Shown one piece after another: positions 5,776 through 54,282 of a DNA stretch of 64,000 nucleotides. The first letter of the stretch is position 1. Every line of letters begins with the position of its first letter. The translations under genes and the position numbers were made by a program. Source of the DNA: a bacterium OM1 bin76 (GTDB taxonomy: Bacteria > Actinomycetota > Acidimicrobiia > Spongiisociales > ZC4RG35); the NCBI GenBank assembly GCA_002238785.1, contig MPNA01000003.1, positions 7,368 through 71,367 of the forward strand. The letters are read 5' to 3'. Below the pieces are notes generated by a model, which saw only the letters and a list, made by a program, of their open reading frames with translations, had not been told where the DNA came from and searched no databases.

Positions 5776-6419
5776 CCGGTCCAGAGAGGCTGTTCAACCG
5801 TCCAGGACACCGGGTTGCCCCATCGCTCAGCGTAGCTCACCTTATGAACCGGGCGACGGGCAGCCAACCCCCACCTCCCCTTCGGGTACCCGCAGGGAAC
5901 CGCGGCTGCCTGCTTCCATCCCCGGTCGGTTGGGACACCCAGCAGTGCCGCAGTCTCCTCCGCTTTGAAGGCTCCCAAGATGGTGGTGAGGCAGGTGCCC
6001 ACGCCATGTCCCCGGGCGGCGAGCATGGCGCTCCACACCGCCGGGTAGATGGATGCGCCCGACTCGTCTCCCCTCGCGTAGAAGAACAGCCACAACGGCA
6101 CCTGCGCGGCGTTGTCGGCCAACCACTGTGCAGACCTGAAGACCCGCAGGGTCCCCTCGTCACCCTCCCGCCGGGCCTTTTCCAATGCCTTGCCGTAAAC
6201 CTCATCCAAGAGAGTGGCGAAAGCCTCCTGATAGAGAGCACCCACGCAAGCGCGGGTGTCAGGGTCGGCGACCGCCACGAATCTCCAGTTCTGCGAATTG
6301 CCTCCCGAGGGAGAACGCACCGCGGCATCCAGCATGGCTTTTATCACAATGGTCGGAATCGGGTCGGGCAGCACTCGCCGCATCGCCCGGGTGGTGTAGA
6401 GAGCCTGTGTGAGATCCAT
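5772..6419 (-). CDS. nitroreductase-family protein
   Basis: MDLTQALYTTRAMRRVLPDPIPTIVIKAMLDAAVRSPSGGNSQNWRFVAV is the classic nitroreductase N-terminus. The start is placed at the internal Met (residue 20 of the 234-aa ORF). Confidence 0.6.
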   Translation of the reverse strand: MDLTQALYTTRAMRRVLPDPIPTIVIKAMLDAAVRSPSGGNSQNWRFVAVADPDTRACVGALYQEAFATLLDEVYGKALEKARREGDEGTLRVFRSAQWLADNAAQVPLWLFFYARGDESGASIYPAVWSAMLAARGHGVGTCLTTILGAFKAEETAALLGVPTDRGWKQAAAVPCGYPKGRWGLAARRPVHKVSYAERWGNPVSWTVEQPLWTG

Positions 6420-6496
6420 ACCTGTCAGAGTAGACGGGTTAGCAGAGTCTGAATCCGCCGGGACTGTGCCTGTCACCCTTCTTCTAAGCTTGTCCT

Positions 6497-47802: not shown

Positions 47803-48036
47803 CTAAATGAAGAAGCCGCTGACCAGTTCTGCGAGTACAGCTAGACCGATGGCCCCTCCCACCCATTTCATCCACTGCAAATCATTGTGGAGTACCGCCA
47901 CCGCGGCTTTCAGGTCTTCTCGGGTCGCCAGCAGGTCTTCTCGGGTCGCCAGGGGCTCCAAGGCCATGGCCAGCGCATTTGTCTGAGCCTCGCTGAATCC
48001 CGCCTCTCGGAGAGCCACTCGTTGAGTTGTCTTCAT
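47803..48036 (-). CDS. small coiled-coil protein with C-terminal TM helix (DUF1640-like)
   Basis: MKTTQRVALREAGFSEAQTNALAMALEPLATREDL…KWVGGAIGLAVLAELVSGFFI, 77 aa. Confidence 0.3.
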   Translation of the reverse strand: MKTTQRVALREAGFSEAQTNALAMALEPLATREDLLATREDLKAAVAVLHNDLQWMKWVGGAIGLAVLAELVSGFFI

Positions 48037-48245: not shown

Positions 48246-51200
48246 CTACAAGGGGATTGGCAGTTTGAGGAGCTTGGTTTTCTGATGAGAACGGCGAGCA
48301 CTCGCCCATTGGACCACAAGTTGGTCCTGGGTGAATAGGATCACCTGATGGTCGTTAGATGATTGGAGAAGGTATTCCAGCACCTGCTCCTTGCGTTCGG
48401 GGTCGGCATGCACGGTGGGATCGTCAAGTAACACCGGACACGGTTCGTGTCCGTCGGTCAATACCTGAGCGAGAATAATCCGCAACAGTAAGTACACCTG
48501 TTCAGCGGTCCCATGAGATAGGAGTGCCGCCTCCCTGATCATGCCATCCATATGTCGCAGTTTCACCTCAAGCGTCTCTGGGTCGACGAATGCGTCCACA
48601 TAGCGCCCACCTGTGACAAATGGAATCCGCTCCGTCATGAGGGCTTCCAACCTGGGCGCTAGAAGCCGATGGGCGCGCTCAGCAGCTCTTTGCAGGTATT
48701 CCCTGGCCGTGTCTAGGGTACTCTGGAGACGCTGCACCTTTGCCAGCTCACTCTTAGCTTTTTCGACAGTTGCCTTGGCCGTGGCCACATCCACGCGGTC
48801 TGTGCTTATTTGTTCAAGTTGTCCAGCAGCCCTGCTTGCTTCTTTACGAGCTTCTCGCAATTGACGATCACTCCGTTCTAGGACCACCCGGATGTTGTTT
48901 GACCCCAGTAGTTCCCCTTCTAAACCAGCAGACAACTCCTTTGCCTTTCGTCTGAGTTCCCTCGCTTCACGCTTGACGTGGGCGGCGTCGGTCTGCCATT
49001 CTTCTACCGAAAGACCCCCTAACGCCTCTTGAAAACGGCCCCACTCCGCAACGTCCTCTTGTCGCTGCTCCGCCAAACCCTCCAGATGACCCAACAGACC
49101 AACAGCCACCCTCAAGAGCTCACCCTCATCACCAGAACCATCCCCCCCATACGAGACCACAACACTACGCAACTCCTCAAAAGCCTCCTCCCGCGCAAGA
49201 CTCCGCCTCGCTTCCTCCTCATCAAACCGCCTACGCCGCCTGGCTAGCTCCGTAGTCTTCGAATGCTGCGCTTCAATTTCCTCTTTACACATAGGCGCCA
49301 CATCCAAGATGGCTGCCAAAGAATCGGTCTCATCTGCTGCCAACTCAACATCCCGGCGTGCACTCTTTGCCTCCTCCCTCCACTCCTCTATTGATCGACC
49401 CGAGAGTGCCTCTTGAAAACGGCCCCACTCCGCAACGTCCTCTTGTCGCTGCTCCGCCAAACCCTCCAGATGACCCAACAGACCAACAGCCACCCTCAAG
49501 AGCTCACCCTCATCACCAGAACCATCCCCCCCATACGAGACCACAACACTACGCAACTCCTCAAAAGCCTCCTCCCGCGCAAGACTCCGCCTCGCTTCCT
49601 CCTCATCAAACCGCCTACGCCGAAATATCATTTCCTCGGTCACTAGCCTTTCGGCGTCGATTGTCTTCGTTTCTAAGGTTTTACCATGAACCTTGGCGGT
49701 CATTTCCTCCACTCTTCTTCTCGCTAGATCCACATATTGTCTAGAGCTTTCAGCTTCAACTCGCCACGCTTCTACCGAGCGATCCCCCAGCGCCTCCTGA
49801 AAACGTCCCCACTCCGCAACATCCTGCTGTCGCTCTCGCGCCACCCGCTGAAGATCACTCAATAAATACGTGGACTCACCGAGAACCTGGCCTTCATCAC
49901 CAGATGCATCTCCCCCGTATAGAGACAAAACCCTCCGCAGCTCTGCAAAAGCATCCACCCGTTCAGCTTTCCGCTTCGCCTCCTCGTCATCGAACCGCCT
50001 GCGCCGCGCTACCATCTCCTCAAGCCTGCGCCGTTCGGAGGTTTGCTCACTCCAGGCGCGTTCCCTGTTGTAGAACTCGGCTATCGCGGCATCTGGATCA
50101 AGAGGAAGCTCCCACTCGTGAAGGAGACGATGAGCTTCAACCACCCTTGCATCGAAGGTCTCTCGCTCCCGGAGTTGACGCTCCAGAAACTGGAGCGCAA
50201 CCGGTGCAGCTGATCTCTGCTTAGACGGAACGACTCGAAGAAACCCCAATCCCAGAGCTACTAGGACTCCGGCCGAGATTCCATACAGAAGCTCCGTAGT
50301 AACCATCCAGACCCCAGCAGCCGCCACAACACCAAAACCGGTTAACATCGCCACTCTCCAACCCGACAAACCGGTCTCCGTTGGCGCTTGTATGCGACGG
50401 GCCTCCACCACTTGAGATTGCAGTTCCTGCTGTGGAGGAGGGTTTTCTCTTAGGGGAATTACCCACCGCTGGACATCGCCTGGACTAGGGCATGGCTTCG
50501 GGGGTGAGGCGTCGAGCATGCCGATGCGTTCCTCAAGATTGTCGAGAGGATCGAGGTCCGTGAACCCGGATGTTGGCAGACTGTTACACCGGGCAACGGC
50601 TGATGCCATATCGGCAAAACTCATCAGCTCCCGATTGCGTGGGTCCGCATCAAGAAATCGCTGCTCCCATTCTTCCAGACGCTCAACCTTCCGCTCCAAT
50701 TCCTCCGCCCGCCTCTCCGCCTCCTCCAAGTCCTCCAAATCCTCCACTAACTCCTTCTTCAGGCCCAATTCCTCCAAACGGTCCTCAAGGGCCTCCAACG
50801 GATCAAGATCCGTCCCAACAGACTCAGGCGCACTCTGAGCGCGGCGAATAGCAATTACAAGGTCCGCGGTACTGATTTCTTCCAGAGCTCGCGGATTACC
50901 ATCAACAAACCGACGCTCCCACTCCTGCAGACGTTCAACCTCTCTTGTTAGTTCGTCAGCTTGCTTCTCGGTCTCGTCTAGACCCTCAAACGCCTCAACT
51001 AACTCCTGCTGCTGATCCAATTCCCTTAGGCGACCTTCAAGAGCCTCCAACGGATCAAGATCCGTCCCAACAGACTCAGGCGCATTCTGAGCACCACTTA
51101 TGGCAACCACAAGGTCCGCCGTATTCTCCTCCCCTAGGATCCGCGGATCCCCTTCAGGAAACTGCCGCTCCCAGTCTGTCAGTCTGGTTGCTCTTTCTGT

Positions 51201-52013
51201 CAGTTGACTTGCCCTTATTTCAGCTTCGTCACTGGCCAACGACGCCTTCAGCGCTGCCTCCCGATCCTCCAGATCCCGAACCCTTCGACGATACCTGTCC
51301 ACTCGCCTCGCTAATTCCACATATTCTTGGCGGCGTTCCTGTGTTCTGGACAGTTGGCGTTCGGCTCTTTTCACACCATCGATCGCAAGCCGAAGAGGTC
51401 TTCTTGAATTCCTGCGATCAAGTCCTACATTCTCAGTTGAAAACTTCCTTATGCGCTCAATAGCTCCCGCCGCCGTGCCACCTGCGCCACCTGCGGCGGC
51501 CTGAGCGAGACTCTCTTGTAAGGCATCGCGCTCAGTCTTGCGCTCTCGTCTTCTTAGATCGAGGATCGAAAGTATGTCTGCTTGGCTAACCGACGCTGTT
51601 ATCGGAAAGGTTGTCCGATCGAGTCCTAGCCACTTAGAACCGTCGGGACTTCCCTGATTCATCAGGTCATCGGTTACTTTCCTTCCACCCACACCTATAT
51701 CCAGAACCCTGGTACTCGGAACCCTTAGATCGCGATCTATTTCGATAATGCGCCCATCATCCAGCGCTAGCTCCAAGGTGACCTGCCAATGGTCCGGATC
51801 GTCCCAAGGCTGGCGGCGTCTCTTGAAGTCTCTCTCTGCGTTGGTTCGACCACTCCCGTGCCTACGTCCGCACAGAGCTACTACTAGGGCAGCATGCCAC
51901 GTCGATTTGCCAGACTCGTTGGGTCCGTAGACAATGTTGAGAGCCTTACCGAAATTCAAACCCTCGTCGCGCAAGTGCCCGAAGGCCCCAGCGGTAATCT
52001 TGCGGAACCACAT
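48246..52013 (-). CDS. SbcC/Rad50-like SMC-family ATPase (YhaN/SbcE-like) with central transmembrane hairpin and internal tandem repeats
   Basis: N-terminal LNIVYGPNESGKST (Walker A). C-terminal LLSHGTAEQVYLLLRIILAQ plus PVLLDDPTVHAD (signature/Walker B-like). A very long charged coiled coil lies between them. Mid-protein …WRVAMLTGFGVVAAAGVWMVTTELLYGISAGVLVALGLGFLRVV forms two hydrophobic helices. No CxxC zinc hook. Confidence 0.7.
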   Translation of the reverse strand: MWFRKITAGAFGHLRDEGLNFGKALNIVYGPNESGKSTWHAALVVALCGRRHGSGRTNAERDFKRRRQPWDDPDHWQVTLELALDDGRIIEIDRDLRVPSTRVLDIGVGGRKVTDDLMNQGSPDGSKWLGLDRTTFPITASVSQADILSILDLRRRERKTERDALQESLAQAAAGGAGGTAAGAIERIRKFSTENVGLDRRNSRRPLRLAIDGVKRAERQLSRTQERRQEYVELARRVDRYRRRVRDLEDREAALKASLASDEAEIRASQLTERATRLTDWERQFPEGDPRILGEENTADLVVAISGAQNAPESVGTDLDPLEALEGRLRELDQQQELVEAFEGLDETEKQADELTREVERLQEWERRFVDGNPRALEEISTADLVIAIRRAQSAPESVGTDLDPLEALEDRLEELGLKKELVEDLEDLEEAERRAEELERKVERLEEWEQRFLDADPRNRELMSFADMASAVARCNSLPTSGFTDLDPLDNLEERIGMLDASPPKPCPSPGDVQRWVIPLRENPPPQQELQSQVVEARRIQAPTETGLSGWRVAMLTGFGVVAAAGVWMVTTELLYGISAGVLVALGLGFLRVVPSKQRSAAPVALQFLERQLRERETFDARVVEAHRLLHEWELPLDPDAAIAEFYNRERAWSEQTSERRRLEEMVARRRRFDDEEAKRKAERVDAFAELRRVLSLYGGDASGDEGQVLGESTYLLSDLQRVARERQQDVAEWGRFQEALGDRSVEAWRVEAESSRQYVDLARRRVEEMTAKVHGKTLETKTIDAERLVTEEMIFRRRRFDEEEARRSLAREEAFEELRSVVVSYGGDGSGDEGELLRVAVGLLGHLEGLAEQRQEDVAEWGRFQEALSGRSIEEWREEAKSARRDVELAADETDSLAAILDVAPMCKEEIEAQHSKTTELARRRRRFDEEEARRSLAREEAFEELRSVVVSYGGDGSGDEGELLRVAVGLLGHLEGLAEQRQEDVAEWGRFQEALGGLSVEEWQTDAAHVKREARELRRKAKELSAGLEGELLGSNNIRVVLERSDRQLREARKEASRAAGQLEQISTDRVDVATAKATVEKAKSELAKVQRLQSTLDTAREYLQRAAERAHRLLAPRLEALMTERIPFVTGGRYVDAFVDPETLEVKLRHMDGMIREAALLSHGTAEQVYLLLRIILAQVLTDGHEPCPVLLDDPTVHADPERKEQVLEYLLQSSNDHQVILFTQDQLVVQWASARRSHQKTKLLKLPIPL
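49025..50176. repeat. three in-frame tandem 384-bp units inside the SbcC-like gene; copies 1 and 2 share a ~222-bp identical core
   Basis: 49025-49246 equals 49409-49630 (read directly). A third diverged unit starts at 49793. Each unit encodes the 128-aa module RRRRFDEEEARRSLAREEAFEELRSVVVSYGGDGSGDEGELLRVAVGLLGHLEGLAEQRQEDVAEWGRFQEAL…. Confidence 0.85.
50487..51050. repeat. 2.3 tandem 252-bp (84-aa) units inside the SbcC-like gene
   Basis: The module TDLDPLEALE(G/D)RL(R/E)EL…EWE(R/Q)RF(V/L)D…P…SVG is repeated. GGATCAAGATCCGTCCCAACAGACTCAGGCGCA occurs at both ~50800 and ~51052. Confidence 0.8.
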
Positions 52014-52016
52014 AGC

Positions 52017-53123
52017 TCAACCCACGGCTAAGTCGTTGCGGCCCTCAAGAGCACGTAACCCCGTGATAATAACCCTGTGCCGTTCGTCATCATCAAGATC
52101 GGCTGCGATCAAGTCGCGGACGAACTCCCCTCGCACTGTGGACTCCTCCTGTATAGCCGCAACATCATACCCGGGATTCAGGCTGCCTGCACGTACCACT
52201 AAATCCTGCAGTTGGCCTCGGCGTTGGCTGAGTACGGCAAGGTCAAGTTGTACAGCACTAGCCAATTCCCCATGAAGAGTGACTCTGGCTACCCCTTTAA
52301 GAGGCTCCAACGCGGCCTTCATGCGGTCCTGTATTTCTCCGAAATCAACGCATCCGCTCACATCCATTACGAGATCGTGGATCTGCAAGCTTGTAACCCT
52401 ATGCGAAGTGCGTTGAACCGTGCCCCGAGCGTCAAACGACATCTCAACTGCTCCCCCTCTGCCTTGATCCTTGAATGAAAGCGGGGCGGGAGTTCCAGGG
52501 TATGTGTGGGAATCTCCCATGAAAGGACTGTGGTAATGACCGACTATGCAATGAACAAGTCCCGCCGCGGAAATGTCGTCGGCGCGAAACGGTGCATGTC
52601 GTATCTTCTCAGGATGGGATTGCGCTACGCTTGCCCAGCCACCAATCTCCGATCCGTGAAACAACCCTAAGTGCAAAGCATCGCCTTCCACCTCAAATCG
52701 ACTTAGTGGATTCACGGTTTGTGAAGGGTTTCTATGGGCGAAGCCCCACACCCGAACACCGTCAAGGCCATCGTATGGCGTCAGATCACCCGCACCAAAT
52801 ATGTGGACGTTGGGTGACCAGTCTGCCGTCACGTAAATACTTCCTGGTCCATACCAATCGTGATTTCCGGGAGAAATCAAGACCGGAATCGGTGCCACCT
52901 CAGCGAAGAGGCGCTGCAACATCTGAACGGTGTCCGGAGTGTAAAGCTCGTGCTCGTAGAGGTCCCCAGCACACATCAGCATATCCACCTCTAAATGACT
53001 GGCCAATCGAACAATCCTGCTTAAGGTGTTTTTCAATTCGCCACGCCGCAATTGAGACAAGGTGGGCCCTCTCCCAGTAAACGGGGCATCCAAGTGGAGA
53101 TCGGAAAAGGCGAGTACCTTCAA
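52017..53123 (-). CDS. SbcD/Mre11-like calcineurin-type metallophosphoesterase nuclease (YhaO-like)
   Basis: MKVLAFSDLHLD, CAGDLYEH, SPGNHDW and GHYH are phosphoesterase motifs I-IV/V. Its stop is 3 nt from the start of the SbcC-like gene. Confidence 0.75.
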   Translation of the reverse strand: MKVLAFSDLHLDAPFTGRGPTLSQLRRGELKNTLSRIVRLASHLEVDMLMCAGDLYEHELYTPDTVQMLQRLFAEVAPIPVLISPGNHDWYGPGSIYVTADWSPNVHIFGAGDLTPYDGLDGVRVWGFAHRNPSQTVNPLSRFEVEGDALHLGLFHGSEIGGWASVAQSHPEKIRHAPFRADDISAAGLVHCIVGHYHSPFMGDSHTYPGTPAPLSFKDQGRGGAVEMSFDARGTVQRTSHRVTSLQIHDLVMDVSGCVDFGEIQDRMKAALEPLKGVARVTLHGELASAVQLDLAVLSQRRGQLQDLVVRAGSLNPGYDVAAIQEESTVRGEFVRDLIAADLDDDERHRVIITGLRALEGRNDLAVG

Positions 53124-53159: not shown

Positions 53160-53215
53160 TTCCCAACCTTAGAGAACAGACGCGACGTATTCTGTGATCT
53201 CTTGCTGGAGAGCAA
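53160..53215. repeat. native add 3-prime end that is duplicated at 48170-48232
   Basis: See the 48170 repeat. Together the two copies bracket the SbcD/SbcC-like module. Confidence 0.7.
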
Positions 53216-54167
53216 CCTTCCGATCCTCCGGTAGGAAGGAAGCGGTGACAGAGTTGCGCGCCAGTTGCGCCAGATCATCGCAGGAGAGATCCAGGGCCGT
53301 GGCGATGGCGAGGTAGTTATCCCCGACGTATCCGCCGAAGTAGGCAGGGTCGTCGGAGTTGACGGTGACCAGAACCCCGGCATCCAGCAACTCCTTGAGA
53401 TTGTGGCAGCGGAGGTCAGGGAACACCTGGAGCTTCTGGTTCGACAGAGGACACATGGTCAGAGGAATCTGCTCTCGGACCAACCGCTCCACCAGAGCGG
53501 GATCATCCGCGGCCCGCACTCCATGGTCGATGCGTTCCACTCCCAATACATCGAGAGCTGACCAGATGTATTCCGCCGGGCCCTCCTCGCCGGCGTGGGC
53601 CACAGGTCTCAGGCCAGCCTCTACAGCCCGGCGGTAAGCCTCGGCAAACAACTCAGGGGGATTACCCAACTCGCCCGAGTCGAGTCCCACCCCTTGGATG
53701 TAAGCAAGGTATGGTCGGGCCTGCTCGAAGACCTCGACAGCCGATTCGGGTGAAAGGTGCCGGAGAAAACAAAGGATCAGGGTCGACGAGACTTCCGCCA
53801 CTCTTTTCTGTCCTCGTGCGAACCCGCGGATCACCGTCCCGATGTCGATCCCCCGCTCGGTGTGCGTTTGAGGATCGAAGAAGATCTCCGCGTGACGCAC
53901 CCCGTCCGACGCCGCTTTCGCAAGGTAGGCAGCCATCAATTGGGCGAAGTCGTTCTCTGTTTGCAGCACCGCGGCAGCTTGGTAATAGATGTCGAGAAAC
54001 GATTGGAGATCGTCGAACTCGTAGGCCGCCGCAACATCCTCGACCGACTGGAACGGCAGTGCCACGCCGTTGCGCTCCCCCATCTCGAACATCATCTCCG
54101 GCTCCAGAGTGCCCTCGATATGAATGTGTAACTCGGTCTTCGGTAGGCCCCGGACGAAACTCTCCAT
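53169..54167 (-). CDS. add: adenosine deaminase
   Basis: LPKTELHIHIEGTLEPEMMFEMGERNG…FF…HAGEEGPAEYIWSALDVLGVERIDHGVRA…TVNSDDPAYF. Confidence 0.8.
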   Translation of the reverse strand: MESFVRGLPKTELHIHIEGTLEPEMMFEMGERNGVALPFQSVEDVAAAYEFDDLQSFLDIYYQAAAVLQTENDFAQLMAAYLAKAASDGVRHAEIFFDPQTHTERGIDIGTVIRGFARGQKRVAEVSSTLILCFLRHLSPESAVEVFEQARPYLAYIQGVGLDSGELGNPPELFAEAYRRAVEAGLRPVAHAGEEGPAEYIWSALDVLGVERIDHGVRAADDPALVERLVREQIPLTMCPLSNQKLQVFPDLRCHNLKELLDAGVLVTVNSDDPAYFGGYVGDNYLAIATALDLSCDDLAQLARNSVTASFLPEDRKVALQQEITEYVASVL

Positions 54168-54282
54168 GTCTCTGCTCCCTTTCATGGACATAGCTCAATA
54201 GGGACGTTGTTACTACGGGTATTTGGAAAAACGAGAGAGCGCACCCAGGCGCTCTCTCGTGAATCCAACTTAGGTGCCTGGG

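What the first reader, a model, noticed from the sequence alone, without database searches (positions are those of the whole stretch)
49025..50176. Three in-frame tandem 384-bp units (128 aa each) in the SbcC-like coiled coil, two of them nearly identical
49025-49246 and 49409-49630 are identical over ~222 bp, and a third, diverged unit starts at 49793. This is a recent intragenic duplication, or ongoing unit-number variation, in the coiled-coil arm. Variation in arm length would change the reach of the Rad50-like complex. The identical copies also make the region prone to assembly collapse or expansion, so the true copy number is uncertain.
Basis: seen in the sequence. Interest (0 to 1): 0.55.

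Follow-up and report, generated by a model that had tools for sequence, protein, structure and literature searches.

The report
Variable repeat modules in SbcE-like arm
The gene encodes a Rad50-like DNA-repair ATPase of the poorly studied SbcE/YhaN type. Its long helical arms are built from old tandem repeat modules that recombination keeps partly identical, and the module number differs between closely related strains and trips up short-read assemblies.

Summary
Three in-frame 384-bp units lie at window 48867-50018 on the minus strand. Two of them share an exact 215-bp tract (49024-49238 = 49408-49622).

The gene (48246-52013, 1255 aa) is not a classical SbcC. It is an SbcE/YhaN-type (Pfam AAA_27) Rad50-like ATPase with no CxxC zinc hook and a hydrophobic hairpin at the arm apex. 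It sits 3 nt downstream of an SbcD/Mre11-like nuclease gene. The N-terminal arm also carries three 252-bp (84-aa) units.

The triplication is old, not recent. The linkers between cores are positionally orthologous in sister species at about 78% DNA identity. Cores 2 and 3 are identical within each genome, with 0 synonymous differences, yet only 80-84% identical between species. That pattern is concerted evolution by gene conversion.

Unit number does vary. Apparently long-read assemblies of sister species carry (N,C) = (3,3), several differently joined (2,2) alleles and one (2,3). The outgroup is (1,1).

The window's own strain exists as a 3-unit assembly, a 2-unit assembly (100% identical over 23.4 kb apart from one unit), and an assembly broken inside the repeat. 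The unique 169-bp linker shows that at least three units are real.

This is a new variant of a known kind, of moderate interest.

The parts
52017..53123 (-). SbcD/Mre11-like (YhaO/SbcF-like) metallophosphoesterase gene, 368 aa. Its stop codon lies 3 nt upstream of the ATPase start codon.
   Evidence: Pfam Metallophos E 1.2e-11 and Metallophos_2. Sub-threshold NCBIfam sbcd hit. PDB sequence hits to Mre11/SbcD, E 2e-8. Motifs DLHLD, GDLYEH, GNHD and GHYH are present.
48246..52013 (-). SbcE/YhaN-type Rad50-like ATPase gene, 1255 aa. The protein is identical to NCBI MCQ3804067.1, 'AAA family ATPase [Acidimicrobiia bacterium]'.
   Evidence: Pfam AAA_23 (E 5e-11) and AAA_27 (30.3 bits against a cut-off of 22), plus a sub-threshold SMC_N hit at the C terminus. 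A family profile hits Rad50 heads in the PDB, E 3e-17. The AF2 model of orthologue P0003 best matches Rad50, then SMC proteins. Identity to P0116 shown.
50427..51182 (-). N-terminal arm: three in-frame 252-nt (84-aa) units at 50931-51182, 50679-50930 and 50427-50678. The third unit is diverged and runs into the apex motif KPCPSPGDVQRWVIPLRE.
   Evidence: the repeat finder family D2. Self-BLAST at offset 252, 72.6% identity. Unit HMM gives three hits. Translations checked. The longest exact tract between units 1 and 2 in this genome is only 42 nt.
50223..50357 (-). Two adjacent hydrophobic segments (aa 553-597) at the arm apex, where SbcC/Rad50 would carry the CxxC zinc hook. Predicted membrane hairpin.
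   Evidence: Kyte-Doolittle 19-residue means reach 1.85 only in this stretch; the maximum elsewhere is 1.15. The protein has no CxxC motif. 109 of 120 family members have a central segment with KD of at least 1.6, and none has a central CxxC.
49635..50018 (-). C-arm unit A (aa 666-793): core 1 (RRRRFD...EWGRFQE) plus linker l1. This is the diverged copy.
   Evidence: Core 1 is about 70% identical to cores 2 and 3 in DNA and 81-82% identical to core 1 of sister species.
49251..49634 (-). C-arm unit B (aa 794-921): core 2 plus linker l2.
48867..49250 (-). C-arm unit C (aa 922-1049): core 3 plus linker l3, which leads into the head-proximal helix.
49408..49622 (-). Core 2: a 215-nt tract exactly identical to 49024-49238 (gene-conversion tract).
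   Evidence: There are 0 synonymous and 0 nonsynonymous differences in 71 codons.
49024..49238 (-). Core 3: a 215-nt tract exactly identical to 49408-49622.
49239..49407 (-). Unique 169-nt B-to-C linker (l2), encoding ...DSLAAILDVAPMCKEEIEAQ... It is absent from the 2-unit contig and orthologous to l2 of sister species.
   Evidence: It is missing from L001, where the two BLAST HSPs overlap by exactly the 215-nt tract. Linker l2 is 66-70% identical to l2 of L081 and L086, against 39-54% for non-orthologous linkers.

Best explanation
**What it is.** The gene encodes an SbcE/YhaN-type Rad50-like ATPase. It has a bipartite ABC head and two long helical arm halves. At the arm apex it has a hydrophobic, probably membrane-inserted, hairpin where SbcC and Rad50 carry a zinc hook. 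The gene forms a two-gene operon with an SbcD/Mre11-like nuclease.

**How the arms were built.** In this Acidimicrobiia lineage both arm halves were lengthened long ago by tandem duplication of modules:
- an 84-aa unit in the N-terminal half;
- a 128-aa unit in the C-terminal half, made of a 71-aa core plus a 57-aa linker and predicted to form three helices of about 45, 36 and 30 residues.

The outgroup has one unit of each kind. This clade has two or three.

**Why two copies look identical.** The near-identity of C units B and C is not a recent duplication. Intragenic gene conversion keeps the cores of units B and C identical within each genome, while the linkers diverge and stay positionally orthologous between species.

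**Why unit number varies.** The same homology (215 nt in this genome) drives unequal recombination or replication slippage. This adds or removes whole in-frame units, so the unit number differs between strains of one species.

**Inferred, not shown.**
- One N unit and one C unit pack together as one arm module, so selection favours matched numbers: (1,1), (2,2), (3,3).
- Each module would add roughly 6-7 nm between the membrane-bound apex and the ATPase-nuclease head.

**State of the window's own strain.** The 3-unit form is real. The 2-unit contig of the same strain is most likely a short-read collapse, although true heterogeneity in the population is not excluded.
For: **Family assignment**
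- AAA_23 plus AAA_27.
- Rad50 is the closest match by sequence and by fold.
- The protein has no CxxC and has a central hydrophobic pair of segments. This holds across the family: 109 of 120 members have the central hydrophobic segment and none has a central CxxC.
- This matches the published description of B. subtilis SbcE: no CxxC, a unique central domain with a hydrophobic half, insolubility, and an adjacent SbcD-like YhaO/SbcF (PMC2811018).

**Old repeat, homogenised by gene conversion**
- Linkers l1, l2 and l3 align by position across three species groups: 63-74% DNA identity for orthologous pairs against 39-57% for non-orthologous pairs.
- The groups share only about 78-81% DNA identity in the surrounding syntenic locus.
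- Core 2 against core 3 within a genome is 100% (window), 99% (L081) and 100% (L086). Between species the same cores are 80-84% identical.
- Within genomes there are 0, 1 and 0 synonymous codon differences. Between species there are 13 synonymous and 16-19 nonsynonymous differences in 71 codons.

**Unit-number polymorphism**
- Species X: the (3,3) strain (L081/L082, P0119) and the (2,2) strains (L083/84, L085) share 96.4-96.8% local DNA identity.
- L087 is 99.1-99.8% identical to the (3,3) strain, yet is (2,2).
- The four (2,2) alleles have different junctions or mosaic linkers in both arms.
- Species Y: (2,3) against (2,2) at 96.8% identity.
- These contigs are 0.12-2.9 Mb long, apart from one 12-kb contig (L082) whose '_3x_l' suffix looks like 3x coverage. 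They carry long-read-assembler style names and homopolymer indels.
- The outgroup P0011-P0029 has one N unit and one C unit.

**Assembly behaviour in the window's strain**
- L001 is 100.000% identical over 23.4 kb except for a 384-bp deletion, and the two HSPs overlap by the 215-nt tract.
- P0118 and P0117 are the first 844 aa and the last 305 aa of the same protein. Both are labelled partial, and both end or begin inside the identical core.

**Helix pattern of the units:**
Against: **Recombination mechanism.** No reads were available, so the copy number in the window's strain (three, or more) and the status of the 2-unit contig (collapse or real variant) are not settled.

**Pairing of N and C units**
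- L086 is (2,3). Its frameshifts look like homopolymer errors, so it may be an intact mismatched allele.
- L001 is (3,2).
- The sample of independent alleles is small.
- The tools return no coordinates for the AF2 models, so N-to-C packing could not be read off.
- The C arm modelled alone had low confidence (pLDDT 64, pTM 0.29) and no significant fold match, which does not decide either way.

**Membrane insertion.** This rests on hydropathy alone.

**Functional consequence.** Nothing here tests whether arm length affects function.
Confidence: 0.8

Rival explanations
1. Recent whole-unit tandem duplication. Unit C (or B) would be a young copy of its neighbour that has not had time to diverge.
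For: The 215-nt tract has zero differences. The spacing is exactly 384 nt and in frame.
Against: A young 384-nt duplication would be identical across the whole unit. Instead identity drops abruptly to about 40-60% outside the core. The B-to-C linker l2 differs from l1 and l3 and has orthologues in species X and Y, whose loci are only about 78-81% identical to the window. The same 'cores 2 = 3 identical' pattern recurs independently in three species, each with its own species-specific core sequence.
Confidence: 0.04
2. Assembly artefact in the window. The third unit would have been created by the assembler traversing a repeat twice, and the true gene would have two units, as in the JGI contig.
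For: A contig identical over 23.4 kb has only two units. The 1255-aa protein is recorded from MKWU01, which is an Illumina-only SPAdes assembly. The 215-nt tract exceeds the largest k-mer used there, 127.
Against: Traversing the core twice cannot invent the 169 nt of unique, in-frame l2 sequence between the cores. That sequence has clear orthologues in the same position in apparently long-read assemblies of sister species. The collection records the same 1255-aa protein on two contigs, and it carries both an NCBI MAG protein accession and the MKWU01 record. The (3,3) architecture recurs in three assemblies of species X, on contigs up to 2.8 Mb.
Confidence: 0.05
3. The identity of cores B and C is maintained by strong purifying selection on the protein, for example two identical binding sites, without gene conversion.
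For: Cores are more conserved between species (80-88% DNA identity) than linkers (63-74%), so the cores are under more constraint.
Against: Selection on the protein does not preserve synonymous sites. Within genomes, cores 2 and 3 show 0, 1 and 0 synonymous differences. Orthologous cores between species show 13 synonymous differences in 71 codons. In addition, 16-19 codons changed amino acid between species, and they changed in parallel in both copies.
Confidence: 0.05
4. The N-arm and C-arm units are structurally independent, for example with C units as free-standing three-helix (spectrin-like) bundles. On this reading the unit numbers in the two arm halves drift independently, and the matched (2,2) and (3,3) states are coincidence or linkage.
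For: Unit lengths differ (84 against 128 aa). Each C unit has three helices, which could form a bundle on its own. L086 (2,3) and L001 (3,2) are mismatched alleles.
Against: In species X every allele is matched. There are four distinct (2,2) alleles with different junctions in both arms, and one of them is about 99% identical to the (3,3) strain. This implies repeated paired changes. The outgroup is (1,1). The C arm modelled alone is low-confidence, and no spectrin-repeat protein appears among the top 50 fold matches, none of which is significant. Both mismatched alleles carry caveats: one is a short-read contig, the other has two frameshifts in the operon.
Confidence: 0.3

Closest known systems
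SbcE (YhaN) / SbcF (YhaO) of Bacillus subtilis (Krishnamurthy et al., NAR 2010, PMC2811018)
   Same: It is an SMC/Rad50-like ATPase with long helical arms and no CxxC hook. It has a distinctive central domain with a hydrophobic half. Its gene is adjacent to, and presumably co-transcribed with, an SbcD-like metallophosphoesterase gene. It has the Pfam AAA_27 N-terminal domain.
   Different: The window protein comes from an uncultured Acidimicrobiia MAG whose 1255-aa protein is also recorded from an Aplysina aerophoba sponge metagenome assembly. It is about 30% longer than typical family members (about 790-960 aa) because both arm halves carry tandem modules. No such repeats were detected in the other long family members tested. 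Direct sequence comparison with B. subtilis YhaN itself was not made here. The DNA-repair and competence roles shown in Bacillus are untested for this organism.
SbcCD / Mre11-Rad50
   Same: The ABC head has a Walker A motif, a signature motif and a Walker B-like motif. Rad50 is the best match by both sequence and fold. The partner nuclease has Mre11/SbcD motifs. The overall topology is head, arm, apex.
   Different: There is no zinc hook: no CxxC anywhere in the protein. The apex is hydrophobic. NCBIfam SbcC/Rad50 and SbcD equivalog models score far below their cut-offs. Walker B reads LLDD rather than the usual D-E. The arm helices are interrupted every 30-45 residues.
Length-tuned SMC arms (Burmann et al., Mol Cell 2017, PMC5344682)
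   Same: Arm length changes in discrete steps. In engineered B. subtilis Smc only particular arm lengths work, following a periodic pattern. Here natural alleles differ by whole modules, mostly in both arm halves together.
   Different: That work resized a continuous coiled coil by engineering. Here the steps are natural, arise by recombination, and occur in a different SMC-like family. The same paper notes that periodic constraints in Rad50 arms remain unclear.
Concerted evolution of intragenic tandem repeats in bacterial repeat proteins (for example streptococcal M and alpha-C proteins; from general knowledge, not tested here)
   Same: There are in-frame tandem units with identical cores within a genome. 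Recombination causes gain and loss of units between strains. Short-read assemblies collapse such regions.
   Different: Those are surface proteins under immune selection. This is a cytoplasmic or membrane-tethered DNA-repair-type ATPase. Here only the unit cores are homogenised, and the linkers stay distinct.

Membership tests
SbcE/YhaN family (Pfam PF13514 AAA_27) | N-terminal AAA_27/AAA_23 P-loop domain scoring above the Pfam gathering score | tested here: met
   AAA_27 scores 30.3 bits against a cut-off of 22. AAA_23 scores 44 bits against 27. Almost all homologues carry PF13514.
SbcE/YhaN family (Pfam PF13514 AAA_27) | No CxxC zinc hook, and a distinctive central domain with a hydrophobic half between the two arm halves (PMC2811018) | tested here: met
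   No CxxC is present. There are two hydrophobic segments at aa 553-597 with KD up to 1.85. 109 of 120 relatives have this feature and none has a central CxxC. The published description was read.
SbcE/YhaN family (Pfam PF13514 AAA_27) | Adjacent SbcD-like (YhaO/SbcF) metallophosphoesterase gene | tested here: met
   ORF 52017-53123 lies immediately upstream with a 3-nt gap and hits Metallophos at E 1e-11. The pairing is conserved in orthologous loci.
SbcE/YhaN family (Pfam PF13514 AAA_27) | Direct homology to B. subtilis YhaN over the full length, and a role in double-strand-break repair or competence | not tested
SbcC / Rad50 | Zinc-hook CxxC motif at the coiled-coil apex | tested here: not met
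   No CxxC anywhere in the 1255 aa. The cysteines are at positions 48, 476, 508, 909 and 1192.
SbcC / Rad50 | Scores above the curated cut-off of the SbcC/Rad50 family models | tested here: not met
   NCBIfam Rad50 models score 22 and 15 bits against cut-offs of 1000 and 700. Pfam SMC_N scores 27 bits against a cut-off of 40.
SbcC / Rad50 | Rad50-type ABC head fold with a Mre11/SbcD-type partner | tested here: met
   The family profile hits Rad50 heads at E 3e-17. The best Foldseek hit is Rad50 7zr1, E 5e-12. The partner hits Mre11/SbcD at E 2e-8.
Lamassu LmuB and other defence SMC-like ATPases (considered) | Full-length match to the defence-system model and a defence-type gene neighbourhood | tested here: not met
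   The PADLOC LmuB hit (E 2e-18) covers only the C-terminal head and arm part. The neighbours are a permease, an adenosine deaminase, an oxidoreductase and a sugar ABC transporter, syntenic across species.

The most novel reading that the evidence does not exclude
Arm length of a membrane-tethered Rad50-like nuclease complex is a quantised, evolvable trait. One 84-aa N unit and one 128-aa C unit would form a single structural arm module. Intragenic recombination switches strains between 1, 2 and 3 (or more) modules. Selection would enforce matched changes in both antiparallel arm halves, which would make this a natural counterpart of the engineered finding that only particular SMC arm lengths work. 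Module number might then tune how far the ATPase-nuclease head reaches from the membrane.
Probability: 0.25. Interest if true: 0.65.

Novelty: new variant of a known kind. Interest (0 to 1): 0.45.

Why it matters
SMC and Rad50-type proteins depend on their long arms. Engineered Smc works only at particular arm lengths, and whether Rad50-like arms obey similar rules is still open (PMC5344682). This lineage offers natural alleles of one orthologous gene that differ by whole arm modules, mostly in both antiparallel arm halves at once. They occur between strains sharing 96-99% DNA identity at this locus. That is a ready-made allelic series for asking how arm length and the matching of the two halves affect an SbcE/SbcF-type complex, a family whose mechanism and apparent membrane anchoring are almost unstudied.

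There is also a practical lesson. The same strain is represented in public data as a 3-unit gene, a 2-unit gene and a gene split over two contigs. Short-read MAG catalogues will therefore misreport the length of such genes.

The caveats are substantial. All organisms involved are uncultured, no function has been tested, and the intragenic repeat dynamics themselves (concerted evolution, unequal recombination) are textbook processes.

Tried and rejected
1. **C arm modelled alone** (window aa 655-1050), to see whether the units fold as free-standing bundles. The model had pLDDT 64 and pTM 0.29. The Foldseek search of the PDB gave no hit with E < 0.09, only generic coiled-coil and helical-hairpin matches. 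Inconclusive.
2. **Full-length AF2 model of the (2,2) orthologue P0003** (pLDDT 76). It gave the secondary structure and Rad50/SMC fold matches. No coordinates are returned, so N-unit to C-unit contacts could not be examined.
3. **AlphaFold database fold search**, intended to test for B. subtilis YhaN directly. The library was not available.
4. **Scan of JGI metagenome contigs for the unique l2 linker**, looking for an orphan contig that would prove collapse. It returned 0 hits. A positive-control motif that must occur in the JGI contig L001 also returned 0 hits. The collection therefore does not hold that sample, and the negative result is uninformative.
5. **Exact look-up of the window protein in the contig index.** It is not on record there, although the identical sequence exists as cluster member P0116.
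6. **Other long family members** (1030-1264 aa) were tested for internal repeats by self-BLASTP. None was found at E <= 1e-4, so repeated modules are not a general feature of long members.
7. **Defence-system reading** (Lamassu, Gabija or AbiE-like ATPases). Rejected: the PADLOC matches are partial, covering only the head or head plus part of the arm, and the context is housekeeping and syntenic.
8. **Literature searches** for newer work on YhaN/YhaO, Rv1277/Rv1278 or AAA_27 found nothing beyond the 2010 SbcE paper.
Full report
**1. The observation**

Tandem Repeats Finder reports a period-384 array at 49001-49843. The repeat finder reports three copies with 384/384 spacing at 48996, 49380 and 49764, at 95% and 71% identity to the first.

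A base-by-base comparison at offset 384 shows one exact run, 49024-49238 = 49408-49622, of 215 nt. Identity falls abruptly to about 40-60% on both sides of it.

The repeat lies inside a single ORF on the minus strand, 48246-52013, encoding 1255 aa. Each unit is 128 codons. With a unit HMM and motif anchors, the units are A 49635-50018, B 49251-49634 and C 48867-49250. In the protein, the diverged unit (A) comes first and the two near-identical units (B and C) follow.

**2. What the gene is**

- Pfam assigns AAA_23 and AAA_27 at the N terminus, both above threshold, and a weak SMC_N hit at the C terminus.
- A profile of 82 relatives hits Rad50 ATPase heads in the PDB at E 3e-17.
- An AlphaFold2 model of the (2,2) orthologue P0003 (pLDDT 76) matches Rad50 best, then Smc5/6, MukB, JetC and LmuB.
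- The upstream ORF 52017-53123 ends 3 nt before the ATPase start. It is a metallophosphoesterase with Mre11/SbcD motifs.

So this is a member of the Rad50/SbcC superfamily with its nuclease partner. It is not SbcC proper:

- There is no CxxC motif anywhere in the protein.
- The only strongly hydrophobic stretch is a pair of segments at aa 553-597, in the middle, where the zinc hook would be.
- Across 120 relatives, 109 have such a central hydrophobic segment and none has a central CxxC.

This is the description given for B. subtilis SbcE (YhaN): SMC-like, closest to SbcC, no CxxC, a unique central domain with a hydrophobic half, insoluble, and next to the SbcD-like YhaO/SbcF. SbcE has roles in double-strand-break repair and competence (PMC2811018).

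NCBIfam SbcC/Rad50/SbcD equivalog models score far below their cut-offs. PADLOC hits (LmuB and others) are partial, covering the head or the head plus part of the arm. The neighbourhood is housekeeping (xanthine/uracil permease, adenosine deaminase, GFO/IDH oxidoreductase, sugar ABC transporter) and syntenic between species.

The window protein is identical to NCBI MCQ3804067.1, 'AAA family ATPase [Acidimicrobiia bacterium]'. It is also recorded from MKWU01, the Illumina-only assembly of the Aplysina aerophoba sponge metagenome.

**3. Age of the repeat and the source of the identity**

Orthologous, syntenic loci were recovered from three species-level groups:

| Group | Loci | Local DNA identity |
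|---|---|---|
| W | window, L001 | 100% |
| X | L081-L085, L087 | 96.4-99.9% within the group |
| Y | L086, L004 | 96.8% |

Between groups the identity is about 78-81%.

Each C unit splits into a 71-aa core (RRRRFD...EWGRFQE) and a 57-aa linker.

*Linkers are orthologous by position.* Window l2 (...DSLAAILDVAPMCKEEIEAQ...) is 66% and 70% identical in DNA to l2 of X and Y. It is only 39-54% identical to any l1 or l3. The same holds for l1 and l3.

*Cores behave the opposite way.* Core 2 against core 3 is 100%, 99% and 100% identical within the window, L081 and L086. The same cores are only 80-84% identical between species. At the codon level, the within-genome pairs show 0, 1 and 0 synonymous differences. 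Orthologous cores between species show 13 synonymous and 16-19 nonsynonymous differences in 71 codons, with the amino-acid changes shared by both copies in each genome.

Three conclusions follow:

- The three-unit architecture predates the split of these species.
- The identity of B and C is maintained by ongoing gene conversion (concerted evolution).
- Neither a recent duplication nor protein-level selection explains the pattern.

The conversion tract is bounded by the diverged linkers: 215 nt in the window, 214+21 nt in L086, and about 254 nt with two mismatches in L081.

In the N arm, linker orthology between W and X likewise shows that three units are old. The homogenised tract there is 130 nt in L081 but only 42 nt in the window.

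**4. Unit number varies**

Counts are written as (N-arm units, C-arm units).

| Source | State | Notes |
|---|---|---|
| Window | (3,3) | |
| Outgroup P0011-P0029 (about 790-810 aa, 42-49% identity) | (1,1) | |
| Species X: P0002 (two assemblies), P0119 (2.8-Mb contig) | (3,3) | |
| Species X: P0003 | (2,2) | N linker is an n1/n2 chimera; C arm is c1-l2-c-l3 |
| Species X: P0004 | (2,2) | same N junction; C arm ends in an l1/l3 chimera |
| Species X: P0124/P0007 | (2,2) | mosaic n2-type N linker; C arm is c1-l1-c with an l2/l3 chimera |
| Species X: L087 | (2,2) | 99.1-99.8% identical to the (3,3) strain, one unit fewer in each arm, and an IS insertion in the N arm |
| Species Y: L086 | (2,3) | |
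| Species Y: L004 | (2,2) | |
| P0006, P0127 (other lineages) | (2,2) | |

These relatives sit on contigs of 0.12-2.9 Mb, apart from the 12-kb L082 and the 37-kb P0006 contig. The contigs have long-read-assembler style names. Their only defects are single homopolymer indels. I therefore take them to be long-read assemblies in which a 1.2-kb repeat is spanned. This is an inference, not a record.

The different junctions and mosaic linkers show several independent recombination events.

No internal repeats were detectable in other long family members, so the modular expansion is specific to this clade.

**5. Assembly behaviour in the window's own strain**

JGI contig Ga0209544_1000961 (L001) is 100.000% identical to the window over 23.4 kb. 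The one difference is that it lacks one 384-bp unit, and the two BLAST segments overlap by exactly the 215-nt tract.

A third assembly carries the same protein as two 'partial' pieces. The first 844 aa end inside core 2, and the last 305 aa begin inside core 3.

The direction of the error can be argued. The 169-nt l2 linker (49239-49407) is unique, in frame and orthologous to l2 elsewhere, so an assembler cannot have invented it. At least three units exist in the sampled population. The 2-unit contig is either a collapse that dropped l2 or a genuine minority deletion allele. More than three units cannot be excluded without reads.

A scan for an orphan l2 contig in JGI metagenomes returned nothing. 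A positive control also returned nothing, so that test is void.

**6. How it probably works**

*Shown:* two arm halves built of repeated helical units. Each C unit is predicted as three helices of about 45, 36 and 30 residues, separated by an 8-residue GGDGSGDEG loop and short turns. Each N unit has one long helix of about 45 residues plus a short 13-residue helix. The apex is hydrophobic, and the head is Rad50-like with a nuclease partner.

*Inferred:* as in other SMC-like proteins, the N- and C-terminal halves run antiparallel from the head to the apex.
- If the three helices of a C unit zig-zag, its net advance (about one long helix, 6-7 nm) would match that of an N unit.
- One N unit plus one C unit would then form one arm module, and adding modules would move the head further from the membrane-embedded apex.

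This would explain three things:
- The outgroup is (1,1).
- All five alleles of species X are matched.
- A strain about 99% identical to a (3,3) strain differs by one unit in both arms.

Against it:
- There are (2,3) and (3,2) alleles, each with a caveat.
- The number of independent alleles is small.
- No coordinates were available.
- The isolated C-arm model was uninformative.

I put the module-pairing idea at roughly 45%. I put the core account (old repeat, gene conversion, recombinational unit gain and loss, and an assembly hazard) at about 80%.

**7. Novelty and interest**

The gene family is known but barely studied. Intragenic concerted evolution and unit-number polymorphism are textbook processes. 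What is unusual is where they occur: in both antiparallel arm halves of a Rad50-like ATPase, giving natural within-species arm-length alleles.

Engineered B. subtilis Smc works only at particular arm lengths, and the corresponding question for Rad50-type arms is open (PMC5344682). These alleles are a natural series bearing on that question. I rate this a new variant of a known kind, with interest 0.45.

Noticed in passing
window 50223-50357 (aa 553-597 of the ATPase): The arm apex carries two adjacent hydrophobic segments instead of a zinc hook. The feature is family-wide: 109 of 120 relatives have it and none has a central CxxC. This suggests the whole SbcE/YhaN family is membrane-anchored at the apex, a point the 2010 paper noted only as a 'hydrophobic, insoluble central domain'.
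   Followed up: partly
window 48429-48443 (Walker B, aa 1194-1198) and the family alignment A3: Walker B reads VLLDD, with Asp where ABC ATPases normally have the catalytic Glu. The strand that normally ends in the H-loop His reads ILFTQ. Both appear in the consensus of the 82-sequence family alignment (LLLDDxTV, QVILFSQE). This hints at a slow or atypical ATPase cycle.
   Followed up: no
L087 808-3928 (sister species X, ENA ERZ21829562 ctg252287l): The orthologous ATPase gene is split by an insertion carrying IS110-family and DDE_Tnp_1 transposase genes inside the N-arm repeat core. The gene is therefore dispensable in at least one strain. The same sample also holds an intact (2,2) allele on another contig (L084).
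   Followed up: partly
L086 2251-3950 and L004 about 6371-6471 (species Y): Single-base homopolymer indels fragment the nuclease and ATPase ORFs in L086 and the ATPase ORF in L004: GGG for GGGG in L086, AAA for AA in L004. The positions differ between the two strains. These are probably long-read errors, but pseudogenisation of the operon in L086, the only (2,3) allele, is not excluded.
   Followed up: partly
window 47911-47952: A perfect 2 x 21-bp tandem duplication (CAGGTCTTCTCGGGTCGCCAG) lies in the 515-bp intergenic stretch between the ATPase gene and the downstream GFO/IDH oxidoreductase gene. It is also present in the JGI contig, which is 100% identical over this stretch.
   Followed up: no
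window 53169-54191 (-): The adenosine deaminase gene next to the operon hits the PADLOC model 'CARF5--CARF_ADA' at E 2e-40. The hit covers only the deaminase part of that model (profile positions 250-597). It is an ordinary ADA in a conserved permease-deaminase pair, not a defence gene.
   Followed up: partly
L086 7472-7996: An HNH endonuclease gene and a small ORF lie between the ATPase gene and the GFO/IDH gene in species Y strain L086. They are absent at that position in the window and in species X.
   Followed up: no
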